From Candidatus Alcyoniella australis (GTDB lineage: Bacteria > Lernaellota > Lernaellaia > JAVCCG01 > Alcyoniellaceae), in NCBI GenBank assembly GCA_030765605.1, contig JAVCCG010000061.1:1-42415 (forward strand): a stretch of DNA of 42,415 bases, read 5' to 3'. This document shows, in pieces, positions 1,763-38,544 of the stretch. How positions within the stretch are numbered: position 1 is the first letter of the stretch; the number at the start of each line of letters is the position of its first letter. The notes beneath the pieces are model-generated. The model did not search any database and was not told the origin of the DNA. It saw only the letters and a program-made list of their open reading frames with translations. Position numbers and translations under genes: made by a program.

Positions 1763-2887
1763 TCAATTTTCAGCGACAGCGGCGTTGATCCGCGGCGAAA
1801 CAGCGGCCGCCAACTGCTGGGCGACCAGGATATTTCCCATGCGCGAAAGATGGCCGTTTTTCGGGAACAGGTAGGTCTGGTCCATCTCAAAACGGCTAAA
1901 CTCATCAAAGGTATCGACTAGCTCCACGCCCTGCTCCGCGCACAGTCGCGCGAAATATTCGCGTACCCCGGGCATGTTGGTCTTGCCCGGCAGTAGCACC
2001 AGCAACGCAATCTGCTGCTCGCGGCACAGCGCCACCGTGGCCGCGAAGATCTCGGCGTAGCGCTGCTCGTGCTGCTCGCGCTGGGCCAGCTCAAAGTTGA
2101 AGTAGCGCGTCATGTGATCATCGCCGCGCTGTTGCTGCGCCTGGCGCGCCTGGCGTACGCGCAGCTCGCGCACCCGGACCCGCACCAGGTCGAGCAGCTC
2201 GCGCACGCCGCGATAGAGCGCGGAGCGCGCCAGCAACGCACGGTGCACGCAGCGCGGGCCCAGCGAGCGACCGTCGGGCAAGGGCTTGGCGCAGTACTGG
2301 CCGCCGCGGCAAAACCCCTGACGCATGAAGTCGTACATCCCGTATAGATCGTTGGCCAACACCTGGAGCACGACCAGGTCGGGCTTTGACGCGCTGCCGC
2401 GCTGGGCGATCAACGAGAACTCGTCGCAGATCGTGTAGCCGGACACCCCGGCGTTGAGCGCCTCGACGATAAGGCGGCCCTCGAGCTGTTTATTGAGCCG
2501 GGTCTCGAGCTGTCCGGGAAAGGTGTCGTCGTTGCCCACGTACGGTCCGTAGGTGAACGAGTCGCCCACGCACAGCACGCGGTACACGCCCGTGGGCTTG
2601 GGCAGCTCCACATCGGTTGCGCGCCGCAATCCCTGGGAGTTGGTCTGCTCGCGAAACGGGAAGTTGCGGTCCATCAGCGAGATCTCGTCCACGTTGAGCC
2701 GCAGGTCGCCCAGCAACGTCACATCGGCCGCGGATCGCTCGGGGCACGGCTCGTAGGGCGAGCTGTAGAGCAACGTGCGGCAGACGATCTCACCCGCGAA
2801 CACAAACAGCAGCAGCGCGACCAGGGCAAAGGCCAAGCGCCTGGTCAGTGAGATCTTCAATGTTCGTTCGTTATCTTCGGGCGACAC
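1763..2887 (-). CDS. SGNH/GDSL-family hydrolase with an N-terminal membrane anchor
   Basis: N-terminal TM helix LAFALVALLLFVFAG. GDSL block VLCVGDSFTYGPYVG. The start codon is GTG (the complement of cac at 2885-2887). Confidence 0.55.
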   Translation of the reverse strand: MSPEDNERTLKISLTRRLAFALVALLLFVFAGEIVCRTLLYSSPYEPCPERSAADVTLLGDLRLNVDEISLMDRNFPFREQTNSQGLRRATDVELPKPTGVYRVLCVGDSFTYGPYVGNDDTFPGQLETRLNKQLEGRLIVEALNAGVSGYTICDEFSLIAQRGSASKPDLVVLQVLANDLYGMYDFMRQGFCRGGQYCAKPLPDGRSLGPRCVHRALLARSALYRGVRELLDLVRVRVRELRVRQARQAQQQRGDDHMTRYFNFELAQREQHEQRYAEIFAATVALCREQQIALLVLLPGKTNMPGVREYFARLCAEQGVELVDTFDEFSRFEMDQTYLFPKNGHLSRMGNILVAQQLAAAVSPRINAAVAEN

Positions 2888-2903
2888 CCTCGCTCCGCAA
2901 CGC

Positions 2904-2931
2904 TAGCCTGGATCATGAATGATCCAGGCTA
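2904..2931. promoter_or_regulatory. Perfect palindrome TAGCCTGGATCATGAATGATCCAGGCTA (12-bp arms, 2-bp spacer). Member of the recurring intergenic motif family. Candidate operator or hairpin.
   Basis: Read directly from the sequence. AGCCTGGATCAT / ATGATCCAGGCT are exact reverse complements. Located in the 41-nt gap between the SPFH gene stop (2929) and the SGNH gene start (2887). Confidence 0.5.
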
Positions 2932-4077
2932 AAACTTATGGCCGCAGTTGAAGCAGAACTTGGACCCCTTGTCCAACGGCGCGTTGCAGCTCGGGCAGTT
3001 CTCCGGCGGCGCGGTCTCGGCCGGGTCCTGCCCGCTCAAGGGCTTGCCGCAGTTGGGGCAGAACTTGGATCCGCCGGGCACCGGCTGCGAGCACGATGGG
3101 CAATTTTCAGTAAGCGGCTTGCCGCAACTGGGGCAGAACTTGGAGTTGGCCGGGGCCTGGCCCTTGCAGTGCGGGCAGATCACCAGCGGTGCGGCCTGAC
3201 CCTGCGCGCCCTGCTGCATCGCGCCCATCACCATTCCGGGAATCATCATTCCCATTCCAGCTCCCACGCCCAGGCCCATGCCCGCGCCCGCGGTTCCGCC
3301 TTCGCCACCCGCGCCGCCGCCCGTACCCTCGGCAGCCTTCTCCATGGCCTTGGCGGCCTTGAACTGCATGAAGCGGCCCATGTCGCCCACCGCGCCCATG
3401 CCCGCTCGCTCGTCGATCATCTTTTGCACTTCGGCCGGCGGAGTGATCGCGTTGATGAAGAAGTCGAGCAGCTCCAGTCCGTACTTGCTGAAGTCGTCGC
3501 GCAGGCGCGATTTGGAGGCCACGCCCAGCTCGTCGTAGAGCGCGGCGAGGTTGAAGATCGTGTCCACGTTCTCGCCCAAAATATCGTTGAGGCGCGAGAC
3601 GATCACGTCCTTAAGGTAGTTGTCCACATCCAGGCTCGAGTACGCGCCGCGGGTGCCCACCAGATCGTTGATCAGCAGCAGCGGATCAGCGACGCGCATG
3701 GTGTAGGCGCCGAAAGCGCGCAAGCGCACCATGCCCAACTCCGAGTCGCGGAACGGCACCGGCTCCTTGGTGCCCCACTTGAGGTTGGTGTAGACCTTCA
3801 TGTTGATGAAGTAGATTTCGATGCGGAACGGCGACTTGTTGTCGAACGGCACGCCGATCAGCTTGGCCAGCAGCGGCACGTTGAGCGTGCTCAGGGTGTG
3901 GCGTCCCGCTCCCAAGATGTCGAGGGCCTTGCCGTCGCGGAAGAACACAGCGGCCTGATTCTCGCGCACCACCAACTGGCTGCCCACGCGGGTCTCGGCG
4001 CTGCCCGACTCGGGAATGCGGTGGACAATTTCCTCTCCGCTCTCGTCGAAGTACTCGATAACGTCAAGCATCTTCAT
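2929..4077 (-). CDS. SPFH/band-7 (stomatin/prohibitin-like, COG4260-type) protein with four tandem C-terminal zinc-ribbon repeats
   Basis: The N-terminus MKMLDVIEYFDESGEEIVHRIP...VVRENQAAVFFRDGKALDILGAGRHTL is typical of the COG4260 SPFH family. A Gly/Ala/Met-rich linker follows. Then come four repeats of CPxC-x7-SKFCPxCGKPL. AAGGAG sits 10 nt upstream of the ATG at 4077. Confidence 0.75.
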   Translation of the reverse strand: MKMLDVIEYFDESGEEIVHRIPESGSAETRVGSQLVVRENQAAVFFRDGKALDILGAGRHTLSTLNVPLLAKLIGVPFDNKSPFRIEIYFINMKVYTNLKWGTKEPVPFRDSELGMVRLRAFGAYTMRVADPLLLINDLVGTRGAYSSLDVDNYLKDVIVSRLNDILGENVDTIFNLAALYDELGVASKSRLRDDFSKYGLELLDFFINAITPPAEVQKMIDERAGMGAVGDMGRFMQFKAAKAMEKAAEGTGGGAGGEGGTAGAGMGLGVGAGMGMMIPGMVMGAMQQGAQGQAAPLVICPHCKGQAPANSKFCPSCGKPLTENCPSCSQPVPGGSKFCPNCGKPLSGQDPAETAPPENCPSCNAPLDKGSKFCFNCGHKF

Positions 4078-4111
4078 CAGTCAACGTCTCCTTGGAAGAG
4101 TGTGCATCGCA

Positions 4112-4140
4112 GTAGAACCCTCATGAATCATCCAGGCTAG
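4112..4140 (+). repeat. Intergenic motif copy GTAGAACCCTCATGAATCATCCAGGCTAG
   Basis: Seen in the sequence. Overlaps the stop codon (cta at 4137-4139) of the upstream minus-strand gene. Lies 35 nt upstream of the SPFH ATG. Matches the copies at 35435, 4832 and 4677 (inverted) and the palindrome at 2904. Confidence 0.6.
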
Positions 4141-4661
4141 ATCTGGTTGAACGAGTCTTTGCGCAAACCCGCGAACTGTTCGAGCCTGTCGATCGATCCG
4201 TCGAACTCATGGATCCGATTCTTGATCTCCGGGTCGGGCAGATCGGCCTTGGCCCAGGCGTCGGCCTCGAGCACGAGCTGCTCGACCAAGTCGAGGATCT
4301 TGCGGTCGTAATCGTAGAGCGCGGCAAGCTGGGGCTCCTTGATCTTCTGCGGATCAAAGTAGCCCGAATAGCCGTAGGCCGCGAAACGGTGCGTGTCGCG
4401 TACGCGATCGAGCTTGCGCGTCAGCTTGTCCAGCAGGTCGAGCATGCTCAGCTTGCCCGACTCGACACGCTCGGATTTGATGCGCTCCAGCGCGTTCTTG
4501 ACCGCGTTGATGCGGCCCACAGTGTGCTCGCGCAGCAGCTTGTCCGCGTCGCGGAACTTCTCCTTGGCGCGATATCCGCGCAGCACGGGGATCGAGTCGG
4601 CCAACTCCTCGAATTTCTCGGCCCAACCCGTGGCCTGCACCGGACCGCTCGCATCGCTCAT
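4137..4661 (-). CDS. Hypothetical protein, possibly co-transcribed with the downstream SPFH gene
   Basis: Track ORF 4137..4685. The second ATG at 4661 (MSDASGPVQ...) has a GGAGG 5 nt upstream. The first ATG at 4685 lies inside the repeat motif and has no RBS. Predicted helical/coiled-coil. No family was recognised. Confidence 0.5.
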   Translation of the reverse strand: MSDASGPVQATGWAEKFEELADSIPVLRGYRAKEKFRDADKLLREHTVGRINAVKNALERIKSERVESGKLSMLDLLDKLTRKLDRVRDTHRFAAYGYSGYFDPQKIKEPQLAALYDYDRKILDLVEQLVLEADAWAKADLPDPEIKNRIHEFDGSIDRLEQFAGLRKDSFNQI

Positions 4662-4676
4662 CGCCGCCTCCAGACT

Positions 4677-4704
4677 AGCCCGCATTATTCATGAGGCTTC
4701 TACT
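4677..4704 (-). repeat. Intergenic motif copy in inverted orientation. Left arm of a 20-bp perfect inverted repeat.
   Basis: The plus strand reads agcccgcattattcatgaggcttctac. Its reverse complement is GTAGAAGCCTCATGAATAATGCGGGCT. Confidence 0.6.
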
Positions 4705-4831
4705 GCGGCGCACAATCTGCTCTCAACAACAGCGTCATCCTCGCCGATCCGTGCTCGACGTACTGCAGGGAGTACGCCTGCGCAGTATCGGCTCGTCTTC
4801 CTTGTTCTTGCGGCATCTTGCACGCCTCGCT

Positions 4832-4858
4832 ACGAACCCTCATGAATAATGCGGGCTG
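4832..4858 (+). repeat. Intergenic motif copy. Right arm of the 20-bp perfect inverted repeat.
   Basis: ACGAACCCTCATGAATAATGCGGGCT. The 20 nt cctcatgaataatgcgggct (4838-4857) are the exact reverse complement of 4677-4696. Confidence 0.6.
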
Positions 4859-4953
4859 ATTGTGTATATTCGCCAAGCTACCTGCCCCGCCCCACGTTGG
4901 TCAAGGTTCGCGGCGCATAGCCCCTTATCGACAATATGTCCGTGGAGATTAGT

Positions 4954-6483
4954 TTATTCAACCAATGACAATAATTCTTCACGTGCTTGCGATTGATCGA
5001 TACGCCACAGCTCGATTGCCAGGCCCGCGTCCTGAAAAACCAGCCGCTGTTCAAAGCGCAGATCGCCCACTGGCAGTCGCTGCTGATACGCGCGAAAGGC
5101 CGCGTGGTCCGTGGTGTCAAAGGCCGAGCCGGGCCGCACCTCAATACGGATCACGCTCTTGGCCTCAATGCGGGACGCTGCCGCGGCCAGGGTCGTGTCG
5201 CCCTGGAAAAACGCGTCGTCAACAACAATCAATCCTGGATCCAGATCTTGACGCAGGGCGTAAATCCGCAACAGGTCGGGCGACAGCTCGCTGAACGTGC
5301 CCGCCGCCAGCACGGGCTGTGGCCCGTCGATCCAGCCCACGGCCTGCTGAGCCGCCACGCGCACGACCTGCCGCGGGCTGTCAAGCTGATGCTCGGCCAT
5401 CGCCTGGATATAGGTTGTGAAATGCCGCATTGGCGCAACAATCGAGAGCACCAGCAGCAGGGCTATCGTGCATTGCACAACGCGCGCCCTGGAAAGCGAG
5501 AACAGCGCAGCCCAGCCCATTGCGGCCAGGGCCGGAACCAGCATCAGGAACGGAAAGGCGAAACGCGGATGATGATAAGGGTGCAGCGTACAGGCGATCA
5601 GCCCCACTGCCGCAAAGATTGTTAATTGTCGCGCGCGTCTGTTCCACACGGCCCACACCGCGCCCACCAGCGCCAGCAGGCCGGGCACTATCGAGAACGT
5701 ATAGAACGAACGCCAGGCGCGGGCGTAGAACAGCAGTCCGCTGCCATCGGCCTCCGACGTGCGGTTGCGCAGAAACTGCGCCGCGCTGATCAGCTTTTCC
5801 GGGAACGGATAGGCGAACCAGACGATCGATGCCAGTACGCTTGGCAGCGCCAAAATCAACAGTCCGCGCAATCGACGCTGTCGCAATCGGCCGTCGCACA
5901 GCACGCACAACGCTGCGCTGCAAAGGGCGATCAGACCGTAGTTGTACTTGAGCATCAACAGCGCGGCACAGGCCAGGCCCGCGGCCCACAGGTGCGGCTC
6001 GCTTTGCCGATCATCAGCATCACCGCTGAGCAACAGCACGATCAGGCATGTCAGCGCCCACGACGGAACCTCGAGCATGGCCCGCAGGCTGTAATCCACG
6101 AAGTACGGGCTGCAACAGGCGATCACCACGGCCCAGGCCCCCAGGGCCGCGCTGTTCTTGATACCGCTACGCAGCACGATCATGTAGCTCAGCGCCAGTC
6201 CCAGAAGCGCCATGGCGAACGCGCAGAGCCGCGCGCCGCAAATCGGATCGGAGCTAAAAGCGCCGGGCAGCAACAGCAGCGTGGAGAGCGGCGGCCAGGT
6301 TTGATAATTCCAGACCACGTCCAGGGCGTGGCCGCATGCGCCGCGTTCGAGCGCATCGCCGATTTCCAACGCCCGATAGATCAGCGTGGCCTCGTCCCAG
6401 TCCGGCGCAGGCAACAGATCGAGCAGGGTCAGCGGCGCCAGAGCCGTGGGGATCAGCAGTAAGATAAGGGCTGCAAATCGCAA
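4954..6483 (-). CDS. Polytopic membrane protein, GT-C fold (ArnT/PMT-like glycosyltransferase family 39/83 candidate)
   Basis: About ten predicted TM helices. An early periplasmic loop carries the DE motif (PDWDEATLIYRA), as in ArnT/PMT enzymes. A C-terminal soluble domain follows. Confidence 0.45.
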   Translation of the reverse strand: MRFAALILLLIPTALAPLTLLDLLPAPDWDEATLIYRALEIGDALERGACGHALDVVWNYQTWPPLSTLLLLPGAFSSDPICGARLCAFAMALLGLALSYMIVLRSGIKNSAALGAWAVVIACCSPYFVDYSLRAMLEVPSWALTCLIVLLLSGDADDRQSEPHLWAAGLACAALLMLKYNYGLIALCSAALCVLCDGRLRQRRLRGLLILALPSVLASIVWFAYPFPEKLISAAQFLRNRTSEADGSGLLFYARAWRSFYTFSIVPGLLALVGAVWAVWNRRARQLTIFAAVGLIACTLHPYHHPRFAFPFLMLVPALAAMGWAALFSLSRARVVQCTIALLLVLSIVAPMRHFTTYIQAMAEHQLDSPRQVVRVAAQQAVGWIDGPQPVLAAGTFSELSPDLLRIYALRQDLDPGLIVVDDAFFQGDTTLAAAASRIEAKSVIRIEVRPGSAFDTTDHAAFRAYQQRLPVGDLRFEQRLVFQDAGLAIELWRIDQSQAREELLSLVE

Positions 6484-6657: not shown

Positions 6658-8172
6658 ATGTCCAAAGCGTTGCGCCTGTTAACGGTCCTGTTGTGCTTGC
6701 TGATCCCGCTGGCGTTGGTCGCCTGCGATCAGGGCGCCGATGACGACGACGACGACCAGACCGCGGATGACGACGACCTTGACGACGACGATTTGGACGA
6801 CGACGCGGACGACGACGACGATACGCAGGACCCCGACTGGGATTTCATTGTCGACGAACAGGGGCGCGCGCTGATCTTGCACGGCTGCAACTTCGACGGC
6901 GGGGCCAAGTGGAACGCGGGCCTGCCGCCCCAAGGGGTCGAGCAGACGCAGAGCCTGTTTGGCGATTGGGGCTTCAACTTCGCGCGCTACTTAATTTTCC
7001 GGGCCGAGATCGACCCCGAGCCCGGCGTCTACAACGAGGACTATCTGGGCCAGGTCGAGACGCGGCTGGACTGGCTGGAGCAGGCCGGCATCCGCGTGGT
7101 GCTCGACATGCACCAGGACGTCTGGGGACCGGAGTTCCACAGCGGCGGCTCCGACGGCGCGCCGCCCTGGGCCACGATCACCGACGGAGTGCCGCACATC
7201 CCCTTTGCCCAGCTCCTCGGCGCCTGGGCCCTGGACTACCTCTCGCCCGCGGTGATGCGCGCCTTTGACAACTTCTGGGACTACGAGCTGCACCCCGAGC
7301 TGCAGGACCTCTACGCCGCAATGTGGGTCCACGTGGTGCAGCGCTTCAAGGATCACCCCAGCGTACTGGGCTACGACCTGATCAACGAGCCGTGGGAAGG
7401 GACCGGGATCTACAACCAGGGGCGCTTTGACCGCACCAAGTATTTCGAGTTCAACCAGCGGATGATCGACGCGATCCGCAGCGCGGACCAGGAGGGCTGG
7501 ATCTTCTACGAGCCGCGCGCCTTTGGCCCCAACCAGGGACTGCCATCGCATTTGCCCGCACTGGACGATCCGCGTCCCGGCGCGCAACGCCTGGCCTACT
7601 TCCCGCACATGTACTCGATCCTGGTCGAGCTTGAAGGCGGCTACGACCCGCTGCGCGATCCGATCCTCGAGGACTGGCCGCGCAACCGCACGATCGAGAG
7701 CGAGCTGCAGCGTGCGCCGCTGCTGGCCGGCGAATGGTCGTTGCTCACCTGGCCCGACCTGGAAAACCGCCTGCTGTTCAACGATGCGGCCCTGCGGATG
7801 TTCGAAAGCGCGACCTCGGGCTGGGCCTATTGGGATTGCGGCTCGTTCGAGCGCTCGCCGCTTGAGCTGCAAGAGCTGATCGCCTCGCCCTTTCCTCGCG
7901 CCGTGGCCGGTTGGCCCCTGGAGTACGGCTACGACCAAAGCGCGCGCGAGCTGAGCTTGACCTTTGAGGCGCGCGACAATGTCGAGGGACCGACCGAGAT
8001 CTATCTGCCGCTAAGCCGCTGCTGCCCTGACGGCTACGCAATCGAGGTCAGCGGCGTGGCGGAAGATGGCTGGCACAGCGAGTTTAACGACGATTCCCAA
8101 CTGCTCAGCATCTGGATCGATGAGACTTTTACCGAGGCCACAATCAGTATTTTTGCCGCACAGCCGCAGTAG
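6658..8172 (+). CDS. Lipoprotein: glycoside hydrolase family 5 domain, with a poly-Asp linker after the lipobox
   Basis: MSKALRLLTVLLCLLIPLALVAC is a signal peptide plus lipobox. It is followed by DQGADDDDDDQTADDDDLDDDDLDDDADDDDD. GH5 blocks: VVLDMHQDVWGPEF and GYDLINEPWEG (the NEP acid/base motif). GGAGG sits 4 nt upstream of the ATG at 6658. The track ORF begins at 6484, but the upstream residues have no signal peptide or RBS. Confidence 0.7.
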   Translation: MSKALRLLTVLLCLLIPLALVACDQGADDDDDDQTADDDDLDDDDLDDDADDDDDTQDPDWDFIVDEQGRALILHGCNFDGGAKWNAGLPPQGVEQTQSLFGDWGFNFARYLIFRAEIDPEPGVYNEDYLGQVETRLDWLEQAGIRVVLDMHQDVWGPEFHSGGSDGAPPWATITDGVPHIPFAQLLGAWALDYLSPAVMRAFDNFWDYELHPELQDLYAAMWVHVVQRFKDHPSVLGYDLINEPWEGTGIYNQGRFDRTKYFEFNQRMIDAIRSADQEGWIFYEPRAFGPNQGLPSHLPALDDPRPGAQRLAYFPHMYSILVELEGGYDPLRDPILEDWPRNRTIESELQRAPLLAGEWSLLTWPDLENRLLFNDAALRMFESATSGWAYWDCGSFERSPLELQELIASPFPRAVAGWPLEYGYDQSARELSLTFEARDNVEGPTEIYLPLSRCCPDGYAIEVSGVAEDGWHSEFNDDSQLLSIWIDETFTEATISIFAAQPQ

Positions 8173-8335: not shown

Positions 8336-10018
8336 GTGAGAAAACGCTTTTTCACGTTTACCGCCCTGGCCTTCTCAGTTATCTGTGTCATCGGCATCGT
8401 GGCGTTCTGCTCTTGCGGGACTGATGATGACGACGACGCGGACGACGATGACGACGATCTTGACGACGACGCGGACGACGATGACGACGACGGTTTCCCC
8501 TGCGTCTGGGACCAGGTACGAGCAGGACATTGGGTGCATGCGGTGAACTTGCCGTGGGACAACTATGGCACCGACTTCGGAGAAAGCGCCTGGGGCTATC
8601 GCGGATTGGCAAACCAGGGGCCTGCCGGATGGCGCTGCAAACACGACGACGACAGCCAAGGGTGTGCGAGTTTGGATTGGAACGACGGGAAGCTCGTGGT
8701 GAACTTGAGCTTGAATGCCTCAGATCAGCTCAGATCGAATGCAATAACTTACTATTGTTTTGAGGAATCGGCGGCTTTGCCCTCGGAGGGGACGATCGAC
8801 CTTCGCGGAAAAACAGTTGCCGCCCAGGCAAGCTTTCCTGCCGGAAGCCAGGGGCCCTCATCCGCTCCCAACGAAGTAGTCCTCTTTCTCCAGGACATCA
8901 ACTGGAATTGGGGACAGAGCGCGCCGCAGAACATCGTGCCGGGCGACATGACGTTGAGCGTCGTGCCCGACACCCTGCCGGATTTCGATGAGACGCAGGT
9001 CCGCTGCATCGGCATCAGCATGACTACCAACGACGAGGCGCCGGATGATTACACTTATGACGGCTCCTTCACCGTCGATTACGTGCAGTCGCCGCCCGAG
9101 ATAAACTTCCCCTACGACACCGCCCATACGCGCACAGAAGATGAACTGCTGGACATCGCGGGCCTCGGGGCCACGGCGACCCGCGTATGGCTTTTCGCCG
9201 ACGGCCGATCAGGACTGGCATTCGATCCGGCCAGCGGAGAGGTCAGCGGCCTTAATCAGTTTTTTAAAGATGATTTCGACGAACTGATACGTCTGGCTGA
9301 TTCAAGCCGGCTATATCTGATCGTCGTGCTGTTTGACTTCCTGATGGGCGGCTCGTCCCCGGTGGAGGAGCCGGGAATCTTCGGCCACGCGGACCTGATC
9401 ACCGACCCGGCCAAGCGCGATTCCCTGATCGGGAATGCGCTGATCCCGCTCTTTGAGGAGTACGGCGATCGGTGCGAAATATTGTCGTGGGAACTGATGA
9501 ATGAGCCCGAATGGCTGTTGATCAACGATCCCGACCACGTGACGATCCTCGCGGGAAAGAGGCCGTCCGAGATCGCCACCGGCGGCGCGGCCACCTTCGA
9601 CCAGATGACCGAGTTTTTCAACGCTGTTCTTGAGGCATACCAGACCGCCGTGCCCGGCGGGCAACAGCTTTTCACCGTGGGAAGCGCCAGCGAACAATGG
9701 GCCGATCAGTGGTACGAGGCGCTGAACATGGATCTCGGTCAATTCCATTTCTGGAACGGTCCCGCACAGATCGACGAAGGTCTGAGCTTCGATTTCACGC
9801 CGCCGATCGCCGGCGTGCCCAACATCATGGGCGAGTTCAGCTCAGAGGCCGATTGCTGCGAAATACTGGAATCCGCCCTTGAGCTGGATTACTCGGGAGC
9901 CTGGCCCTGGGCCTATCGATCCAAGGACGAATCGAGCTTCCGCATGCTGGGCGACGATTGCCGCGAGTGCATGCAGCAGTTTGCAGAGGAACATCCCGAA
10001 ACGGTTCGCTTCGAATAG
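8336..10018 (+). CDS. Lipoprotein: second glycoside hydrolase family 5 (mannanase-like) domain, with a poly-Asp linker
   Basis: GTG at 8336 is preceded by cAGAGG. The N-terminus (V)RKRFFTFTALAFSVICVIGIVAFCSCG is followed by TDDDDDADDDDDDLDDDADDDDDD. GH5 block: ILSWELMNEPEW. Confidence 0.6.
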   Translation: MRKRFFTFTALAFSVICVIGIVAFCSCGTDDDDDADDDDDDLDDDADDDDDDGFPCVWDQVRAGHWVHAVNLPWDNYGTDFGESAWGYRGLANQGPAGWRCKHDDDSQGCASLDWNDGKLVVNLSLNASDQLRSNAITYYCFEESAALPSEGTIDLRGKTVAAQASFPAGSQGPSSAPNEVVLFLQDINWNWGQSAPQNIVPGDMTLSVVPDTLPDFDETQVRCIGISMTTNDEAPDDYTYDGSFTVDYVQSPPEINFPYDTAHTRTEDELLDIAGLGATATRVWLFADGRSGLAFDPASGEVSGLNQFFKDDFDELIRLADSSRLYLIVVLFDFLMGGSSPVEEPGIFGHADLITDPAKRDSLIGNALIPLFEEYGDRCEILSWELMNEPEWLLINDPDHVTILAGKRPSEIATGGAATFDQMTEFFNAVLEAYQTAVPGGQQLFTVGSASEQWADQWYEALNMDLGQFHFWNGPAQIDEGLSFDFTPPIAGVPNIMGEFSSEADCCEILESALELDYSGAWPWAYRSKDESSFRMLGDDCRECMQQFAEEHPETVRFE

Positions 10019-10834: not shown

Positions 10835-10927
10835 AATTTCCCCTCTGCAAACCTGTCTATCGTATTAGGCCAATCGATGAAAGACGCGTCCCCGGTTCGA
10901 CTGAAGAATCCCTATTAATGATCCGCT

Positions 10928-16733: not shown

Positions 16734-18231
16734 GCTTCCGGCCGGGTTTCCCGGCACGGTCGGTCTAAAATTTAACGAGCCGCTGATCTTCGAGCGCTCG
16801 GTCCCCGGACGTATCGGCCACAGCCTGCCGGCCCTCGACGTTCCGACCGCCAACCCGGCGCTGTACGTCGAGCCCGAGCTGCTGCGCGGCGAGGCTCCGG
16901 CCCTGCCCGAGGTCAGCGAGATTGACGCGGTGCGTCACTTCCACCGCCTCTCGGGCTGGAACTACGCGGTGGACAGCGGGATGTACCCGCTGGGCTCGTG
17001 CACGATGAAGTACAACCCGCGCGTCAACGAGGCGACCTCGCGTCTGCCGGGCCTGGCCCGGCTCCACCCGCTGCAACCGGTCCAGACCGCGCAGGGCGCG
17101 CTATCGCTGATGCACGAACTTTCGTCGATGTTGGCCGAGATCAGCGGCATGCACGCGGTGACGCTGCAGCCCGCGGCCGGAGCCCACGGCGAATTCAGCG
17201 GCCTGTTGATGATCCGCGCCTATCACACCAGCCGCGGCAACCCGCGCAGCAAGGTGTTGATTCCCGATTCGGCCCACGGCACCAATCCGGCCAGCGCCGC
17301 GCTGTGCAACTACAAACCGATCGAGCTCAAGTCCGGCCCCGATGGACTGCTCGACCCGTATACCGTGGCCGCTGCGATGGACGAAGAGGTCGCCGCGCTG
17401 ATGATCACCAACCCCAACACCCTGGGGCTGTTCGAGCGCAACATCCTCGAGATCGCCAAGATCGTCCACGACAAGGGCGGGCTGATCTACTGCGACGGCG
17501 CCAACCTCAACGCCTTGATGGGCGCGGCCAAGCCCGCGCACTTCGGCGCGGATGTGCTGCACTTCAACCTGCACAAGACCTTCAGCACGCCCCACGGCGG
17601 CGGCGGACCGGGTTCGGGCCCGGTGGGCGTGGTCGAGGCGCTCGAGCCGTTCCTGCCCTCGCCCGTGGTCGTCAAGTCCCAGCGCGACGGTGCGGATTAT
17701 TACGAGCTGGATTACGACCGGCCGCAGAGCGTCGGACGGGTCAAAGCGTTTTACGGCAACTTCCTGGTGATGGTCCGCGCCTACACTTACATCCGCGAGC
17801 TCGGCGGCGAGGGCCTGACCCGCTCGACGCAGATGGCGGTGCTCAACGCCAACTACGTCAAGGAACGGCTCAAGGAAGTTTTTAGCGTGGCGCACGACGC
17901 GACCTGCATGCACGAGTGCGTGTTCTCCGAGCAAAGCCTGGTCGAGCACGGCTGCCACACCATGGACCTGGCCAAACGCCTGATCGATTACGGCTATCAT
18001 CCGCCCACGGTCTATTTCCCCTTGATCGTCAAAGGCGCGATCATGATCGAGCCCACCGAGAGCGAGAGCGTCGAGTCGCTGGAGCAGTTCATCGAGGCGA
18101 TGCTGGCGATCCAACGCGAGGCGCAGACCGACCCCGAGTTGCTGCACAGTGCACCGCACTGCACGCGACTGGGTCGCCTCGATGAGGTGCGCGCGGTCAA
18201 GGATCTCGACGTGCGTTGGACCAAACGCTGA
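16708..18231 (+). CDS. gcvPB: Glycine dehydrogenase (decarboxylating) subunit 2 (PLP-binding)
   Basis: LIFERSVPGRIGHSLP...HFNLHKTFSTPHGGGGPG (the PLP-lysine region). ATG at 16708 overlaps the gcvPA stop by 26 nt. Confidence 0.9.
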   Translation: MSKSSTSCELPAGFPGTVGLKFNEPLIFERSVPGRIGHSLPALDVPTANPALYVEPELLRGEAPALPEVSEIDAVRHFHRLSGWNYAVDSGMYPLGSCTMKYNPRVNEATSRLPGLARLHPLQPVQTAQGALSLMHELSSMLAEISGMHAVTLQPAAGAHGEFSGLLMIRAYHTSRGNPRSKVLIPDSAHGTNPASAALCNYKPIELKSGPDGLLDPYTVAAAMDEEVAALMITNPNTLGLFERNILEIAKIVHDKGGLIYCDGANLNALMGAAKPAHFGADVLHFNLHKTFSTPHGGGGPGSGPVGVVEALEPFLPSPVVVKSQRDGADYYELDYDRPQSVGRVKAFYGNFLVMVRAYTYIRELGGEGLTRSTQMAVLNANYVKERLKEVFSVAHDATCMHECVFSEQSLVEHGCHTMDLAKRLIDYGYHPPTVYFPLIVKGAIMIEPTESESVESLEQFIEAMLAIQREAQTDPELLHSAPHCTRLGRLDEVRAVKDLDVRWTKR

Positions 18232-19868
18232 CCGGTTTCGTTTTCACGGCCGAGCACTGGGCCTGCGCCTTGAGCGCATTTATCTGGATCAGCGGCACGA
18301 CCGCGCTGCTCATCACACTGCTTAACAGGACCGACGCGCGCGAACGGCGCTCGGCGTTCTTCGGGCTGCTGCTGATCTGCGCGGCGGCCTACGTCCTGCG
18401 CCTGGCCGTGATCCCGCCCTGGATCTACGAGCCCTCCGGCGACGAGGAGCGGATGATCTTCGGCCCGTTCCTCGGCCAATGGCAGGTGTCCGCGCTGCCG
18501 CAGTCCAGCGGCCTGGCCGCCGACGTCTGGGCCTGGGCCTTTGGCGCGCCGCTACGGATGATGGGGATCGCTGCCGGCCCGCGCACCCTGCCCTGGATCA
18601 ACCAGGTCGCCACCCTGCCCGCCCTGCTGCTGCTGGGCCTGGCCTGCCACCTGATGACCGACCGCCGCTCCATGGCCTGGATCTGCACCGCGGCCGCCGC
18701 CATCAGCCCGCAGCTGATGTTCTGGTCGACCAGCGCCTACGACCTGGCCCCGGCGATCCCGGCCCTGGCGGCCTGGCTGCTGTGCCTGACCGTGCTGCTC
18801 GATCAACGCCGCACCCGGCGGTCGGCGATTCTGGCCGCAATCAGCGCCGCGGGCTGCTGCGTGTGGCTGGTGCTGTGCCGCGTGGAGCTGTGGCTGCCGG
18901 TCTGCGCGCTCCCCGCGACCCTGATCCTCGCCGCATTATTCATCCGCGAACAGCGGGCCCGCCGTTTGGCCGCGGCCGCGCTGTGCATCGTCTGTCTGGC
19001 GCTGGCCGTGCTGCTGCTCTCCTCAGCCACCGAGGCACGCACCGGGACCAAGGTCTTTGCCCTGGATCAGCTGCTGCTCAATTTCGACGCCAGCCGCTGG
19101 CTCAACTCGCCCTTTGGCGGCCTGGTCCCGCTGTTCCTGTCGGCCGCGGGCTATTTGGGCATCCGCAAGCTCGGGCCGTTCCCGGTCCGTTCGGCGCTGA
19201 TCGCCTCCTCGGTCGCGGGGTTGGCCCTGTGGGCGGTCTGCCTGGCGTACGACGGCTTTGCCTCCAAGTACGCGGTCTGGACCGTGCTGCTGCTCGCGCC
19301 GCTGTGGTCCGTGGCCATGTCCTGGCCCGCGCAGATCGCGCAACGCAAGGTCCCGGCCGTCGCGCTGACGCTGCTGATCGTCACCCTTGTGGCCCTGCCG
19401 CCGCTGTTGCGCTGGGGTAGCGACGTGCGCGTCACGGCCGACTCGTTCCACGGCCATGTGCATACCAGCGACATGCTCGAAATCCCGCAGGAAGTGTTGC
19501 TCAAGCAGCTCGAGGGACAGTTGGTCTTTGCCTCGCCCGGGCTGCACGACCCCCTGCGCGAGGCCGGACTGCTTGCTGACGGGATGCTGTTCGAGGCGAT
19601 GCAGCTGGTGGGGCCGCGCCGCCTGGAGCCCGAGCGCTTGCTGCGCATCGGCGAAGAGGGGAACGCCCTGCGGCTGGTCGCGCCCTACGATCACAAGCTG
19701 ACCGCCATCGGCTGGTACGACCGGCTCTACCGCGAGCGCGCACTGTTTAACATGCGGCCCGTGGCCCGCGGCGAGCTGCTGGGGCAGCCGGTGCTGCTCT
19801 ATCGACTGGAGCTGCGCCCCGGCGCGCGCCGGGCCCTGAGCTACTCGCGGTTTAAAATCGAGATCTAG
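18216..19868 (+). CDS. Polytopic membrane protein (hypothetical). The start overlaps the gcvPB stop.
   Basis: About ten hydrophobic helices plus a C-terminal soluble region. No family was recognised. The start is uncertain. Confidence 0.4.
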   Translation: MDQTLTGFVFTAEHWACALSAFIWISGTTALLITLLNRTDARERRSAFFGLLLICAAAYVLRLAVIPPWIYEPSGDEERMIFGPFLGQWQVSALPQSSGLAADVWAWAFGAPLRMMGIAAGPRTLPWINQVATLPALLLLGLACHLMTDRRSMAWICTAAAAISPQLMFWSTSAYDLAPAIPALAAWLLCLTVLLDQRRTRRSAILAAISAAGCCVWLVLCRVELWLPVCALPATLILAALFIREQRARRLAAAALCIVCLALAVLLLSSATEARTGTKVFALDQLLLNFDASRWLNSPFGGLVPLFLSAAGYLGIRKLGPFPVRSALIASSVAGLALWAVCLAYDGFASKYAVWTVLLLAPLWSVAMSWPAQIAQRKVPAVALTLLIVTLVALPPLLRWGSDVRVTADSFHGHVHTSDMLEIPQEVLLKQLEGQLVFASPGLHDPLREAGLLADGMLFEAMQLVGPRRLEPERLLRIGEEGNALRLVAPYDHKLTAIGWYDRLYRERALFNMRPVARGELLGQPVLLYRLELRPGARRALSYSRFKIEI

Positions 19869-19869
19869 C

Positions 19870-19886
19870 CCGGCTTAGAGCCGGCA
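19870..19886. terminator. Short hairpin CCGGCT-tag-AGCCGG between convergent genes. Candidate bidirectional terminator.
   Basis: Seen in the sequence at 19870-19886. 6-bp stem, 3-nt loop. Weak T-tract. Confidence 0.25.
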
Positions 19887-19941
19887 CAAGGCTCGCGCAG
19901 AACGATCATCATTGAACAACAATCCACCCCGCGACCCAAAC

Positions 19942-22900
19942 CTAGCCGCAACAACCTGAGTCGTCGTCATCGTCGCCGTCCGAGGCGTCGTCGTCGTCAT
20001 CGTCGCCGGGTAAATCCGATACCGCGTTGGAGATGCGGCTTAAGTTCCCCTCATCGTCAGCGACACGCAGTGCCACGTGCAGCACGCCGGGGTCGGGCAC
20101 GATAAAGCTCTCGATTGATCCCGGCGGCTGAGGCGCTGCTCCGAACTCAAAGGCCTCTGCCGCGGCAAACTGTTCGACCTGCTCCAGATCGGCCGCGGGA
20201 TCGCGCGAGATGCGCACGTCATAGGACTGTGCCTGACCGCAGGTCCAATCATCTCCCGGCGCGGTGAAGGTCAGCTTGAGCCGCCTATCGCCGAGCCGTT
20301 CGAGCTGCAAGTCGGTGACGCGCGCGGGCGGCAGCGCGTCCAGGCCGTAGTATCCGCTGTTGTGCGGATCGTGGTGAAAGCGCGGCCAGTCGGCGTTCTG
20401 CTCGCCGTCAATGCAGGACGCGGCCCCGGTCTCCCAGGCGTAGAGCCAGCCCTCGTAGGTCGGCAGCAGCACCTCGAGCAGGCCATCGGCGTCGATGTCC
20501 GCGATCGCAGCGCTGCCCGTGATCCATTTCTGCGTGTACTTGGGCCAGCCCGGCGGCTGGATGCCGTCCACCGAGAACGCGTGCGCCAGGTAGCCGCTGG
20601 TCCCCAGCACCAGCTCGCGCGTGCCGTCCGCGTTGAGGTCGGCCGCGGCCGGGCTGTTGAACATCGGAAGGTCCTCCAGCTCCTCGATCAGCAGCCGCTC
20701 GTGGGGCGGGTCAACGTCGTTGGCCGCCAGCTTGGAGTTGATCAGGTTGAACCCCTCCTCGCCGATCTGCAGCACGGACAGCAGCGGGATCGAGTATTGC
20801 AGCCAGCCGTCGTTGTACAGCGAGGTGAACGCGCCGTGGGCGATGGAGGTCAGGCTGAGGCCGGTGGGCATGTACATCTCGTGGATCTTTTCGCCCGAGT
20901 AGTGCATCACCGCCGGGAACCAGCCCGGCGTGCCCAGGCCGATCCAGGCCTCGCCGTTGCCCAAGGCGATCACCGGCGAGGAGACGCCGCCCGCTGCGAA
21001 CGGCAGCGGGATCGCATCGCCCAGGGGCGCTGCGGGCGCGGCCGGCCAGTCGGGCAGAAACGTTCCCGCGGGATTGGCCCAGCCGTCGTGGTAGATCGCG
21101 TAGGCGCGGGTGGTGGCCAGCAGCCCCTCCTCGCAAATCTCGGTGGTCGCCACCACCACGGACGGATATTCGGACACGTCCGGATTCGCGTTCAGCGGAT
21201 CGAGCACACCCGCCGCCGGCGTGCTGCAAATCTGAGACGGCAGGCCGCTCCCCTCGCAGATCCGCTCGTCGCGCACGATCCCCTCGTCGCTGCGGCAGAG
21301 CACGGGCCAGCCGTAGAGCGGGTCGACCTGGCCGTTACCGTCCTGGTCCAGCGGCTTCCAAGCGTAGGCCTTCTGGTCGTTGGACGCGACCACGATCTCG
21401 AGCACGCCGTCGAGGTCGAGGTCAACGAGCACCGGCGAGCCGTAGACGCCGTTACCATGGCCAAAGGCGAGCGAGCTGGAGTTGTCCGGCGCATCGGTCT
21501 GCACCGGAAACCCGGGCAGGATCGGCGAGGGCTGGTGCAGGTTGCCGTCAGCGTGAATTGCAAACACCCGGCCCAGGGCCGTGGCGGCCACGATCTCGGG
21601 CTCGCCGTCGCCGAACAGATCGCCGATGGCCACCGAGCCGATGATCCCGTCGCTGCGCCATTGGTCGTAGCTCGAGAGGTCCACGGGGAAGCCCGCAAGC
21701 TCGGACCAGCCGGAGCCGTCAACGTCGCGGGTCAGAACGTGGACCAGGCCGTCGCCCGTGCCCATCACGATCTCGGGCAGGCCGTCGGCCGCGCCGTCGA
21801 GGTCGTAGACAATGGGCGAGAACCCGGGGGAGGCGCCGAAGTAGTACGGGAAGCCGGCGGCCAGGCCGTTCACCGGATCGTCGTCCACGTGGACCGAGAT
21901 CGACTTGCGCGCCTCGCCGCGCACCTGTTCGTCGATCCCGGCCTCGTACCACGCGCGCACGCGCAGCGAGACCTCGAAATCGTAGCGCGACTGGGGCACT
22001 CCGCGCATCTGGTCGGGCGGAAAGAGTTGGGCGATGGGCACCTGGGCAATCAGGCCCTCGATCCGCTCGTCGGACGTGCCCTGGAACACGGTCTGGTACT
22101 CATTGTCCAGCGGCTGCTTGCCGCGGGCCAGCTGCACCTCGTAGGAGAACGGATAGACCCGGGCGTCGATCTCGCCCTCGAGCTCGAAGGTCGCGCTCGC
22201 CGCGGTATCGAAGGTCTCCCACCAGCGCGGATAGGTGATGCGCACCTCGGGCGGAATGCGCGGCTCGATCCCGCGTTGCTCGTCGCCGAGCATCAGCAGC
22301 GCACGCTCGAGGTCCGGCCGGCCGTAGCCGAAGTGCTCGTCCCAGCCGGGCTGGCAGACGTTGAGCAGCGAGGCCACGGATGCGCAGTGGCTCTCGATAT
22401 CGTCCGCCGACTGGATCAGCAGCTGGAACAGCTCACCCGCGCTGAGCTCGATCCCCTGCTCCAACGCGTAGCTCTTGATCAGGGCCATGGCGCCGGTGGT
22501 GGTGCCCGTAGCGTCGGAGGTGCAGGCGGTGTCGGCGGGCACTGCCACGTGGGCGTGGGTGCCGAAGTTGGTGCAATAGGTCTCGACAAAGCCGAACGAT
22601 CCGAGGTTGAAGATCCCCACCAGGTCCACCGGGATGATCGGGAACAGCGCAGTGACCGCCACCACGTCCTCCATCGCGGCCGGAGCCCAATGGTGCATGC
22701 TCATCTCGTCGCCCTGGGGTGCGGCGATCAGCACCCCGGCGTCGTAGGCCTCCATCACCGCCCGATGCGCTTGGTCCGAATAGTTCAGGGCCACGCCGGA
22801 ATGGTTGATCACGTCCGCGCCCATCGACACCGCGTAACGCACGCCCGCGGCGAACAGGTCGTAGTTGTAGATCACCGCGTCGCCAACCCGCACCTGCATC

Positions 22901-23910: not shown

Positions 23911-24052
23911 CGTGAGCACTCCGGTCGTAATGTGGCAGGCGAGCCTATCCAAGCGGCATTTAGCCTGGATTATTTATCAAGTTTCGTCAAATATTGCGGT
24001 AGCTGAATTTGACCGCTGAACAAATCGGGAATCCACGATATGATTTAAGATC

Positions 24053-35399: not shown

Positions 35400-35434
35400 C
35401 GCCAAGGTTATCCTCTTTCTTGAGCGCCTCGCTG

Positions 35435-35463
35435 ACGAACCCTCATGATTAATCCAGGCTAGT
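35435..35463 (+). repeat. Intergenic motif copy GACGAACCCTCATGATTAATCCAGGCTAG, ending 3 nt before the ATG at 35466
   Basis: Seen in the sequence. A 25/27 match to the copy at 4112-4140. Confidence 0.6.
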
Positions 35464-35465
35464 CG

Positions 35466-38389: not shown

Positions 38390-38464
38390 TGGTGCCCCAG
38401 GGAGGGATCGAACCTCCGCACCCGGCTCCGGAGGCCGATGCTCTATCCACTGAGCTACTGGGGC
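38390..38464 (-). tRNA. tRNA-Arg (anticodon CCG)
   Basis: The reverse complement gives GCCCCAGTAGCTCAGTGGATAGAGCATCGGCCTCCGGAGCCGG...GGTTCGATCCCTCCCTGGGGCACCA. The cloverleaf folds by hand. The anticodon loop is CTCCGGA. CCA is encoded. Confidence 0.85.
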
Positions 38465-38468
38465 ATGA

Positions 38469-38544
38469 TGGTGGACGGTAGCGGACTCGAACCGCCGGCC
38501 TCTGCCTTGCGAAAGCAGCGCTCTTCCAACTGAGCTAACCGCCC
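38469..38544 (-). tRNA. tRNA-Ala (anticodon CGC)
   Basis: The reverse complement gives GGGCGGTTAGCTCAGTTGGAAGAGCGCTGCTTTCGCAAGGCAG...GGTTCGAGTCCGCTACCGTCCACCA. The G3:U70 wobble is the Ala identity element. The anticodon loop is TTCGCAA. CCA is encoded. Only 4 nt separate it from tRNA-Arg. Confidence 0.85.

What the first reader, a model, noticed from the sequence alone, without database searches (positions are those of the whole stretch)
4112..4140. Recurring ~26-nt intergenic motif GAACCCTCATGA(A/T)T(A/C)AT(C/G)C(A/G)GGCT(A/G) at five or more promoter-proximal loci
Near-identical copies occur at 4112-4140, at 35435-35463, at 4832-4858, at 4677-4704 (inverted), and as a palindromised version at 2904-2931. 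Partial copies lie at 23961-23981 (TAGCCTGGATTATTTATC) and 10895-10915. Every full copy is intergenic and within about 60 nt of a start codon. The nearby genes encode envelope or secreted proteins: the SGNH hydrolase, the SPFH protein, its upstream partner, and the OM metallopeptidase/TolB-like protein. The motif has a TCATGA core and an ATCCAGGCT half-site that is palindromic in one copy. A motif this long and conserved in a 65% GC genome is unlikely by chance. It may be a regulator-binding site shared by an envelope regulon, a REP-like element, or an alternative-sigma promoter. It does not match any consensus I can name.
Basis: seen in the sequence. Interest (0 to 1): 0.8.

Follow-up and report, generated by a model that had tools for sequence, protein, structure and literature searches.

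The report
Transposon end repeats, not a regulatory motif
The recurring 26-nt "motif" is the terminal inverted repeat of an IS1380-family insertion sequence, present here as one complete 177-bp miniature transposon (MITE) and several broken remnants, so it is ordinary selfish DNA rather than a shared regulatory site for envelope genes.

Summary
Four full copies, one palindromic copy and one degenerate copy exist, against 0 expected by chance. The claimed copy at 10895-10915 is not supported.

The regulatory reading does not hold. The same 18-20 nt, CCTCATGAATAATSCRGGG followed by CTAG, occurs in more than 10 bacterial phyla. There it forms inverted pairs of discrete sizes (about 180, 215 and 245 bp). 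It also bounds 1.46-1.69 kb elements that encode IS1380-family DDE transposases, and named ISAzs3 and ISBdi2 have cognate ends. Flanks show a direct 4-bp duplication of YTAR, mostly CTAG.

In the window:
- 4679-4855 is a complete 177-bp MITE that folds into one long hairpin.
- 4097-4136 and 35419-35458 are solo ends.
- 2907-2928 is two abutted end tips.
- 23964-23981 is a decayed end.

CTAG is the rarest tetranucleotide here (10 against 141 expected) and contains TAG. This explains why copies sit at stop codons and in short spacers next to starts. Orientation relative to genes is mixed. The motif is absent from 80 loci carrying orthologues of the SPFH gene (the membrane-scaffold gene next to several copies here).

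Verdict: a new member of a known kind, of low interest. One side note: the MITE hairpin is kept by compensatory changes across phyla.

The parts
4679..4855 (.). Complete 177-bp MITE. It has 18-bp terminal inverted repeats at 4679-4696 (CCCGCATTATTCATGAGG) and 4838-4855 (CCTCATGAATAATGCGGG). It lies between the stop of the PMT_2-like glycosyltransferase gene (4954) and the start of the 174-aa gene (4661).
   Evidence: Inverted pair of 177 bp (183 bp, which counts 3 flanking bases at each end), within the 180-183 bp size class seen in other genomes. A half-element HMM built from other phyla matches 4751-4857 with E=3.5e-14. It aligns end to end with MITEs of Nitrospirota, Acidobacteriota and Myxococcota. 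It folds as one hairpin, -102.5 kcal/mol, z=-10.25.
4675..4678 (.). CTAG flank of the MITE (target-site duplication, left). The right flank at 4856-4859 is CTGA, one mismatch.
   Evidence: Across 70 pairs the flanks are CTAG/CTAG in 30, TTAG/TTAG in 3, CTAA/CTAA in 2, and never TTAG/CTAA.
4097..4140 (+). Solo end 'A'. It comprises 22 nt of subterminal sequence, the 18-bp terminal repeat (4119-4136) and CTAG (4137-4140). It fills most of the 59-nt spacer between the 174-aa gene and the SPFH gene. Its CTAG supplies the TAG stop of the 174-aa gene.
   Evidence: 44-nt inverted repeat with 4675-4718, 84% complementary. Profile E=1.2e-7.
35419..35462 (+). Solo end 'D'. It comprises subterminal sequence of the same type as the right end of the MITE, the terminal repeat (35441-35458) and CTAG (35459-35462). 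It ends 3 nt before the ATG of the 959-aa PD40/Omp85-like gene.
   Evidence: 43-nt alignment to MITE positions 141-183. HMM match at 35419-35462, E=3.7e-5. Profile E=1.9e-7.
2903..2932 (.). Palindromic relic: CTAG + CCTGGATCAT GA ATGATCCAGG + CTAA. These are two terminal-repeat tips joined with no interior. The CTA of the right flank is the TAG stop of the SPFH gene.
   Evidence: E=1.3e-4 and 0.26 for the two arms. That it arose by internal deletion across the TCAT(GA) microhomology shared by both repeats is inference. Shorter internally deleted pairs of 67-154 bp exist in other genomes.
23960..23981 (-). Degenerate solo end 'E' (CTTGATAAATAATCCAGG + CTAA on the minus strand). It lies in the divergent spacer between the S8 protease gene and the ChaN-like gene.
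   Evidence: 4 mismatches in 21 nt. Profile E=0.028 over the tip-most 14 nt only. This is the weakest assignment.

Best explanation
The motif is the 18-bp terminal inverted repeat (5'-CCCGSATTATTCATGAGG...CCTCATGAATAATSCGGG-3') of a subgroup of IS1380-family insertion sequences, plus the 4-bp target duplication CTAG that abuts it.

The window carries no transposase. It carries non-autonomous derivatives:
- one intact 177-bp MITE (4679-4855);
- two one-ended remnants (4097-4140 and 35419-35462);
- one relic made of two abutted repeat tips (2903-2932);
- one decayed end (23960-23981).

Proposed mechanism:
1. An IS1380-family DDE transposase encoded elsewhere binds the two terminal repeats.
2. 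It inserts the element at YTAR, overwhelmingly CTAG, and duplicates those 4 bp.
3. Later deletions and decay leave solo ends.

CTAG is the rarest tetranucleotide in this genome and contains TAG on both strands. Usable targets are therefore concentrated at TAG stop codons and in short intergenic spacers. That is why the copies look 'promoter-proximal'.

What is shown: the repeats are identical to the ends of transposase-bearing elements, the duplication is direct and 4 bp long, copies are dispersed, and the MITE has a hairpin architecture.

What is inferred: mobilisation in trans, presence of a cognate transposase in this genome, the deletion origin of the solo and palindromic relics, and any effect on neighbouring genes.
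For: - These span Nitrospirota, Planctomycetota, Acidobacteriota, Myxococcota, Cyanobacteria, Armatimonadota, Chloroflexia, Bacteroidota and Alpha-, Beta- and Gammaproteobacteria.
- sequence is family-specific on the inner side of the motif and unique beyond GGCT-AG. At least 12 contigs end within 70 nt inside it.
- inverted pairs fall into discrete sizes of 180-183, 214-216 and 242-246 bp. Full elements measure 1462-1692 bp.
- the full elements encode 448-469 aa proteins. These match Pfam DDE_Tnp_1_4 (E=1e-120 to 1e-154) and the NCBIfam transpos_IS1380 equivalog (341-400 bits, cut-off 180).
- named ISAzs3 and ISBdi2 have cognate ends flanked by CTAG.
- the flanks behave as a direct 4-bp duplication.
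- a profile built from other genomes recovers the window copies at E=2e-8 to 1e-4.
- the window MITE is homologous along its whole length to MITEs of other phyla.
- CTAG occurs 10 times against 141 expected. It is the rarest tetramer, and 4 of the 10 abut a repeat tip.
- 29% of 175 element ends have a >=80-codon ORF that stops exactly in the duplication, against 16% of control frames.
- a metagenome contig (L124) is 99.7% identical to window 3892-4857. It diverges exactly at the outer end of the MITE into an unrelated gene, which indicates a second junction of the same repeat.
Against: - No transposase gene lies in the 42 kb, and the rest of the genome could not be read.
- The window MITE's own flanks are CTAG and CTGA, not a perfect duplication.
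- No empty site could be found, because no close relative exists in the collections searched. The best SPFH relative is 65% identical over a partial match and about 56% over the full length; the best relative of the 174-aa protein is about 40% identical.
- Three copies sit 3-15 nt from start codons pointing outward. IS1380-family members are known to carry outward promoters (PMC9330008), so a secondary regulatory effect is not excluded.
Confidence: 0.93

Rival explanations
1. Exapted regulatory element. The repeats came from a transposon, but in this genome their outward-facing ends now act as promoters, 5'-UTR elements or an operator that co-regulates envelope and secreted-protein genes.
For: - Copies B, D and E, and one arm of the palindrome, point toward gene starts 3-45 nt away.
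- The repeat contains an A/T-rich AATAAT stretch and an outward ATG.
- IS1380-family members ISEcp1 and ISPme1 have strong outward promoters, and truncated remnants can be fixed as promoters (PMC9330008).
- The neighbouring genes are GDSL, SPFH, PD40/Omp85 and an S8 protease.
Against: - Copies A and C, and the other arm of the palindrome, point antisense or away from genes.
- No sigma-70 consensus promoter was found in 2700-5100 or 35300-35600.
- None of 80 SPFH-orthologue loci carries the motif, and 48 of them keep the 174-aa/SPFH pair.
- CTAG targeting suffices to explain the gene-boundary position.
- Many proteins of any genome are envelope or secreted proteins, so the functional theme is weak.
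Confidence: 0.1
2. Structured RNA or terminator element. The 184-nt hairpin and the 28-nt palindrome act on the polycistronic mRNA as terminators, stabilisers or RNase III sites. On this reading that function, not transposition, is what is conserved.
For: - The element folds as one hairpin with z=-10.25.
- Interior pairs outside the terminal repeats covary across phyla. 89.6% of cells are paired against 71.3% in shuffles, and 18 of 24 pairs carry double changes. No shuffle in 500 reached the observed value for paired cells, double changes or covariation score.
- The palindrome and copy A sit immediately after stop codons.
Against: - No Rfam family matches at E<=1.
- No T-tract terminator was found at these sites.
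- Solo ends cannot fold on their own.
- The same ends bound transposase genes.
- A hairpin is a generic property of MITEs, and concerted evolution of the two arms could also produce the covariation.
Confidence: 0.05
3. A MITE of another transposon family, either IS630/Tc1-mariner (TA duplication within CTAG) or IS5 (YTAR target, 4-bp duplication), or a REP/BIME element mobilised by a RAYT transposase.
For: CTAG/TA flanks resemble IS630 targets, and YTAR with 4 bp resembles IS5 (both from my own knowledge). The copies are intergenic and repetitive, like REPs.
Against: - All six full-length elements bounded by this repeat encode IS1380 equivalog transposases.
- TTAG/TTAG and CTAA/CTAA flanks occur, but TTAG/CTAA never does. 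This fits a 4-bp direct duplication, not TA plus a longer inverted repeat.
- Single units are not palindromic, and no Y1/RAYT gene is associated with them.
Confidence: 0.02

Closest known systems
ISAzs3 and ISBdi2 (IS1380 family; Azospirillum sp. B510 plasmids, Bradyrhizobium plasmids)
   Same: Cognate terminal repeats. ISAzs3 has CTAG|CCGGGAAAATTCATGAGG. ISBdi2 has CTAG|CCCGTCTTATTCGTAAGAG on both ends. Both are flanked by CTAG. The elements are about 1.6 kb and encode one DDE transposase that is 49-56% identical to those of the full-length elements carrying the exact window repeat.
   Different: The window has no transposase, only a 177-bp non-autonomous derivative and fragments. The host is a candidate phylum (Ca. 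Lernaellota), not Alphaproteobacteria.
ISEcp1 and ISPme1 (IS1380 family) and their transposable modules
   Same: Same IS family. These elements are documented to carry outward promoters, to use a single end plus surrogate ends, and to leave truncated remnants upstream of genes (PMC9330008, PMC3281130). This is a precedent for solo ends lying next to gene starts.
   Different: Their transposases are distant. IS1247 and ISPme1 types are about 32% identical to the query transposase, and the IS1380A and IS1247 ends examined differ in sequence. No promoter activity was shown here.
Bacterial MITEs that fold into hairpins, such as Neisseria Correia elements, ERIC and the cyanobacterial MITEs of Anabaena sp. 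90 (own knowledge; PMC3542288)
   Same: They are 100-300 bp, have terminal inverted repeats, are intergenic and multi-copy, fold into long hairpins, and can alter expression of neighbouring genes.
   Different: The parent family differs. Here it is identifiable as IS1380, which makes this a 'type I' MITE. The target is CTAG, and homologous copies are shared across several phyla.
REP/BIME elements
   Same: Short repeats in intergenic regions, often in inverted pairs.
   Different: REP units are themselves imperfect palindromes and are mobilised by RAYT (Y1) transposases. These units are not palindromic and belong to a DDE transposon.

Membership tests
IS1380-family element / derived MITE | The terminal inverted repeats are the same as those that bound IS1380-family transposase genes. 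| tested here: met
   Elements of 1462-1692 bp bounded by the motif encode NCBIfam transpos_IS1380 proteins (341-400 bits, cut-off 180). Named ISAzs3 and ISBdi2 have cognate ends.
IS1380-family element / derived MITE | A short non-coding unit bounded by two inverted terminal repeats. | tested here: met
   4679-4855 is 177 bp with 18-bp repeats. It is homologous over its full length to MITEs elsewhere. The other four window copies are fragments.
IS1380-family element / derived MITE | A direct target-site duplication of 4-5 bp. | tested here: inconclusive
   At family level the feature is met: 35 of 70 pairs have identical 4-nt flanks, including non-palindromic TTAG/TTAG and CTAA/CTAA. In the window the flanks are CTAG/CTGA for the MITE and CTAG/CTAA for the palindrome, one mismatch each.
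IS1380-family element / derived MITE | Many dispersed copies with unrelated flanks in one genome. | tested here: met
   Six copies lie in the 42 kb. L124 shows the same MITE joined to a different flank. Near-identical copies at many loci occur within single MAGs, for example Planctomycetota OFTM281 and Granulosicoccaceae SRP114822_co1_72.
IS1380-family element / derived MITE | A cognate transposase is present in the same genome. | not testable with these tools
   None lies in the window (tblastn best E=0.48).
IS1380-family element / derived MITE | Demonstrated mobility, meaning an empty versus a filled site. | not testable with these tools
   The closest SPFH relatives are 47-65% identical. 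The closest relative of the 174-aa protein is 40% identical. The exact SPFH protein is not on record.
Transcription-factor operator / regulon motif | Conserved upstream of orthologous genes in related genomes. | tested here: not met
   80 SPFH-orthologue loci (449 kb) gave 3 weak hits, none with CTAG flanks. 48 of the loci keep the 174-aa/SPFH pair.
Transcription-factor operator / regulon motif | Restricted to one lineage or regulon and not associated with mobile-element genes. | tested here: not met
   The motif occurs in more than 10 phyla next to unrelated genes and bounds transposase genes.
Sigma-70 or alternative-sigma promoter | -35 and -10 elements at proper spacing, consistently oriented toward the downstream gene. 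| tested here: not met
   No sigma-70 consensus sites were found in 2700-5100 or 35300-35600. Of seven oriented ends, four point to gene starts and three point antisense or away. ECF-type recognition could not be tested.
REP/BIME | Each unit is a 20-40 nt imperfect palindrome, and the family is associated with a RAYT (Y1) transposase. | tested here: not met
   Only the 2904-2931 copy is palindromic. The associated enzyme is a DDE IS1380 transposase.
IS630/Tc1-mariner MITE | TA dinucleotide duplication and an IS630-type transposase. | tested here: not met
   The flank pattern fits a 4-bp direct repeat. The full-length partners are IS1380.

The most novel reading that the evidence does not exclude
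One MITE lineage of about 175-210 bp is shared by Nitrospirota, Acidobacteriota, Myxococcota and Ca. Lernaellota. It has distinct, conserved left and right subterminal sequences and a whole-element hairpin maintained by compensatory substitutions. On this reading, selection acts on the hairpin as single-stranded DNA during transposition or as RNA. In Ca. Alcyoniella, retained ends that now make up entire intergenic spacers have been exapted as promoters or 5'-UTRs of several envelope genes.
Probability: 0.12. Interest if true: 0.5.

Novelty: new member of a known kind. Interest (0 to 1): 0.2.

Why it matters
The main value is as a correction. A long, conserved, gene-proximal motif in a high-GC genome looks like a regulon signal, but here it is transposon debris. 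Regulon or promoter inference in this candidate phylum should mask it.

It also gives a clean example of target choice creating an apparent functional association. The target CTAG is the rarest tetranucleotide in the window and overlaps TAG stop codons, which places copies at gene boundaries.

The cross-phylum MITE lineage with a covarying hairpin is a modest lead for people who study MITE biology and IS1380 transposition.

Tried and rejected
- **ECF or sigma-70 promoter reading** (GAAC as -35, AATAAT as -10). Rejected because of mixed orientation, no consensus promoter, and the presence of the motif at transposon ends.
- **IS630-type MITE** (TA within CTAG). Rejected by the flank statistics and the IS1380 partners.
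- **Known RNA family.** None found at gathering threshold over the whole window, or at E<=1 over 2800-5000.
- **Transposase in the window.** None.
- **Empty-site test.** The metagenome scan with the SPFH protein returned only relatives 47-65% identical. Homologues of the 174-aa protein are at most 42% identical. The exact SPFH protein is not on record. No orthologous empty site could therefore be compared.
- **Literal search for the repeat sequence in papers.** No hits.
- **Subterminal homology left of the palindrome.** A possible extension at 2853-2903 appeared in a pairwise alignment (score 21) but was not supported by the HMM. It is not claimed.
- **The 10895-10915 'partial copy'.** Not supported.
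- **Canonical IS1380A and IS1247 ends.** They do not resemble this repeat, so the repeat marks a subgroup (ISAzs3/ISBdi2-like), not the whole family.

Full report
**1. The observation**

Reading 2700-5100, 35340-35560 and 23880-24120 and pattern searches confirm these copies:
- Four full copies, at 4115-4139(+), 4676-4700(-), 4834-4858(+) and 35437-35461(+).
- A perfect palindrome at 2904-2931, TAGCCTGGATCAT-GA-ATGATCCAGGCTA.
- A degenerate copy at 23961-23981(-).

None of 100 dinucleotide-preserving shuffles gave a single match to the 25-nt pattern. The claimed partial copy at 10895-10915 is not recovered by a profile even at E<=50.

4097-4140 and 4675-4718 form a 44-nt inverted repeat, 84% complementary. 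4834-4858 and 35437-35461 also share upstream sequence, CGCCTCGCT(G)ACGAAC.

**2. Gene context**

Pfam assignments:
- 1763-2887(-): GDSL hydrolase.
- 2929-4077(-): SPFH/Band_7 domain with C-terminal zinc ribbons.
- 4137-4661(-): a 174-aa protein with no family match.
- 4954-6483(-): a weak PMT_2-like membrane glycosyltransferase.
- 35466-38345(+): PD40/Omp85-like.
- 19942-23952(-): S8 subtilase with FG-GAP repeats.

The four genes at 1763-6483 are co-directional. Read on their strand, the copies alternate in orientation. The TAG stop codons of the 174-aa gene (4137-4139) and the SPFH gene (2929-2931) lie inside the CTA(G) that ends the motif. Of seven oriented ends, four point toward a nearby start codon and three point antisense or away. 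A directional promoter or operator would not behave this way.

**3. Where else the motif occurs**

By record title these come from Nitrospirota, Planctomycetota, Acidobacteriota, Myxococcota, Cyanobacteria, Armatimonadota, Chloroflexia, Bacteroidota, Ca. Auribacterota and Alpha-, Beta- and Gammaproteobacteria, among others.

- Oriented alignments show sequence that is conserved within a genome on one side of the motif and unique beyond GGCT-AG on the other.
- At least 12 contigs end within 70 nt inside the conserved side. Repeats that break assemblies behave like this.
- Allowing mismatches, copies form inverted pairs with the GGCTAG ends outward and with discrete lengths of 180-183, 214-216, 242-246 and 254-261 bp. 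The window pair at 4676-4858 belongs to the first class.
- Six pairs are 1462-1692 bp apart.

**4. The long elements are insertion sequences**

Each long element carries one ORF of 448-469 aa (L048 has a disrupted copy). These proteins match Pfam DDE_Tnp_1_4 at E=1e-120 to 1e-154 and the NCBIfam equivalog transpos_IS1380 at 341-400 bits against a cut-off of 180.

tblastn against plasmids finds annotated relatives:
- ISAzs3 has ends CTAG|CCGGGAAAATTCATGAGG...CCTGGTGAATAAAGGCGG|CTAG.
- ISBdi2 has CTAG|CCCGTCTTATTCGTAAGAG on both ends.
- IS1380A and IS1247 have different ends, so the motif marks a subgroup of the family.

**5. The target site**

For 70 inverted pairs, the 4 nt outside the 18-bp repeats are CTAG/CTAG in 30, TTAG/TTAG in 3 and CTAA/CTAA in 2. 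They are never TTAG/CTAA. The flank is therefore a direct 4-bp duplication of YTAR, not an extension of the inverted repeat. From my own knowledge, the IS1380 family makes 4-5 bp duplications and has ends beginning CC. The Paracoccus survey lists IS1247 with a 5-bp duplication (PMC3281130).

**6. Anatomy in the window**

- 4679-4855 is a complete 177-bp MITE flanked by CTAG and CTGA.
  - A half-element HMM built only from other phyla matches 4751-4857 at E=3.5e-14.
  - It aligns end to end with MITEs of Nitrospirota, Thermoanaerobaculia, Vicinamibacteria and Myxococcota. Both its distinct left (CTTCTACTGC) and right (CTCGCKACGAAC) subterminal sequences are conserved.
  - It folds into a single hairpin of -102.5 kcal/mol, z=-10.25.
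- 4097-4140 is a solo left-type end with a 44-nt match.
- 35419-35462 is a solo right-type end with a 43-nt match.
- 2903-2932 is CTAG + two 10-nt repeat tips joined by GA + CTAA. I infer that it arose by deletion of the interior across the TCAT(GA) microhomology present in both repeats. Pairs of 67-154 bp in other genomes show that internally deleted derivatives are common.
- 23960-23981 is a decayed end (E=0.028).
- No transposase is encoded in the window.

**7. Why the copies sit at gene boundaries**

CTAG is the rarest tetranucleotide in the window. It occurs 10 times, against 141 expected from base composition and 53 from a Markov estimate. Four of the ten abut a repeat tip.

CTAG carries TAG on both strands. 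Across 175 distinct element ends, 29% have an open frame of at least 80 codons that stops exactly in the duplication, against 16% of control frames. That is an odds ratio of about 2. The two control frames per end are not fully independent.

A published survey reports IS1380 over-represented between co-directional genes (PMC9208149).

**8. Tests of the regulatory reading**

- No sigma-70 consensus promoter is found in 2700-5100 or 35300-35600.
- No Rfam family matches.
- 80 metagenome loci encode SPFH orthologues that are 47-65% identical. 48 of them keep a co-oriented homologue of the 174-aa protein upstream. In 449 kb they contain only three weak matches, with 3-4 mismatches and no CTAG flanks. 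The motif is therefore not a conserved cis-element of this operon.
- An outward promoter cannot be excluded. ISEcp1 and ISPme1 of the same family have one, and truncated remnants can persist as promoters (PMC9330008). I give this secondary role about 10%.

**9. Source and evidence for more copies**

The 174-aa protein is recorded as a hypothetical protein (P9M14_06700) of the MAG Candidatus Alcyoniella australis on a 42,415-bp contig, which is the whole window. The organism belongs to phylum Ca. Lernaellota (FEN-1099) and comes from Ace Lake, Antarctica (PMC9324843).

The same protein also lies on a 1706-bp ENA contig, L124. That contig is 99.7% identical to window 3892-4857 but diverges exactly at the outer end of the MITE. 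The flank there is TTAG, followed by a Zincin_1 gene whose called ATG lies inside the repeat. Whether this is a real rearrangement or an assembly join, it implies a second, near-identical MITE copy at another locus.

**10. Side finding**

On the MAFFT alignment of 15 homologous MITEs, RNAalifold finds 22 of 41 pairs with compensatory changes. Restricting the count to the 24 pairs outside the terminal repeats gives:

| Measure | Observed | Control |
|---|---|---|
| Cells paired | 89.6% | 71.3% in shuffles |
| Pairs with changes on both sides | 18 | 11.0 in shuffles |
| Covariation score | 0.496 | 0.195 in shuffles |
| Cells paired, partner slid 1-3 columns | | 31-39% |

No shuffle in 500 reached the observed value for any of these three measures.

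The hairpin is thus maintained as the lineage diverges across phyla. This could reflect selection on a single-stranded DNA or RNA structure, or concerted evolution of the two arms. I could not tell which.

**11. Verdict**

The feature is an IS1380-family MITE and its remnants in a candidate phylum: a new member of a known kind, of low interest apart from the covarying hairpin. Confidence is 0.93.

Noticed in passing
window 4679-4855; alignment A1 (L005, L009, L015, L022, L028, L058, L065, L076, L082, L094, L101, L107, L118): Homologous MITEs from at least four phyla keep a whole-element hairpin by compensatory substitutions outside the terminal repeats. 18 of 24 interior pairs carry double changes, and 89.6% of cells are paired against 71.3% in shuffles. 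The apex stem varies: CATCCT/AGGATG, CATAGT/ACTATG, CGTAGT/ACTACG and CGTACT/AGTACG.
   Followed up: partly
L124 1-1706 versus window 3892-4857: A metagenome contig (ENA ERZ27316021 k141_38166) is 99.7% identical to the window up to the outer end of the MITE. It then continues into an unrelated Zincin_1 gene. This is either a second junction or a repeat-mediated assembly join. Three substitutions lie in the terminal repeat there.
   Followed up: partly
window 4683-4685 and L124 747-749: The terminal repeat carries an outward-reading ATG (AATAATGCGGGCTAG). The mechanical ORF 4137-4685 and the called Zincin_1 gene of L124 both start at it. For the 174-aa gene, a better start with a GGAGG Shine-Dalgarno sequence is at 4661.
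   Followed up: no
window, whole: CTAG is the rarest tetranucleotide: 10 occurrences against 141 expected from composition. TTAG and CTAA are also among the rarest four.
   Followed up: yes
window 19865-19890: CTAG directly after the stop of ORF 18216-19868 is followed by CCCGGCTTAGAGCCGG, a short hairpin that begins like the repeat tip (CCCGG). It could be a terminator or a very decayed relic. The profile score is insignificant (E=32).
   Followed up: no
window 6714-6838, 8422-8513, 19953-20008, 33578-33648, 439-526: (GAC/GAT)n-rich repeats lie in several ORFs on both strands. If they are in the coding frame, they would give poly-Asp low-complexity stretches in several large predicted proteins.
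   Followed up: no
window 2936-3144: Three copies of a 29-nt repeat (GGCTTGCCGCAGTTGGGGCAGAACTTGGA) lie inside the 3' part of the SPFH gene. They correspond to its repeated C-terminal zinc-ribbon modules.
   Followed up: no
window 38393-38544 (-): Two adjacent tRNA genes are the only Rfam matches in the window.
   Followed up: no
L013 137-317 and neighbouring bases: In a Planctomycetota MAG, two elements abut tip to tip and share a single CTAG (…CCGGGCTAGCCCGGG…). This suggests repeated insertion at the same target.
   Followed up: no
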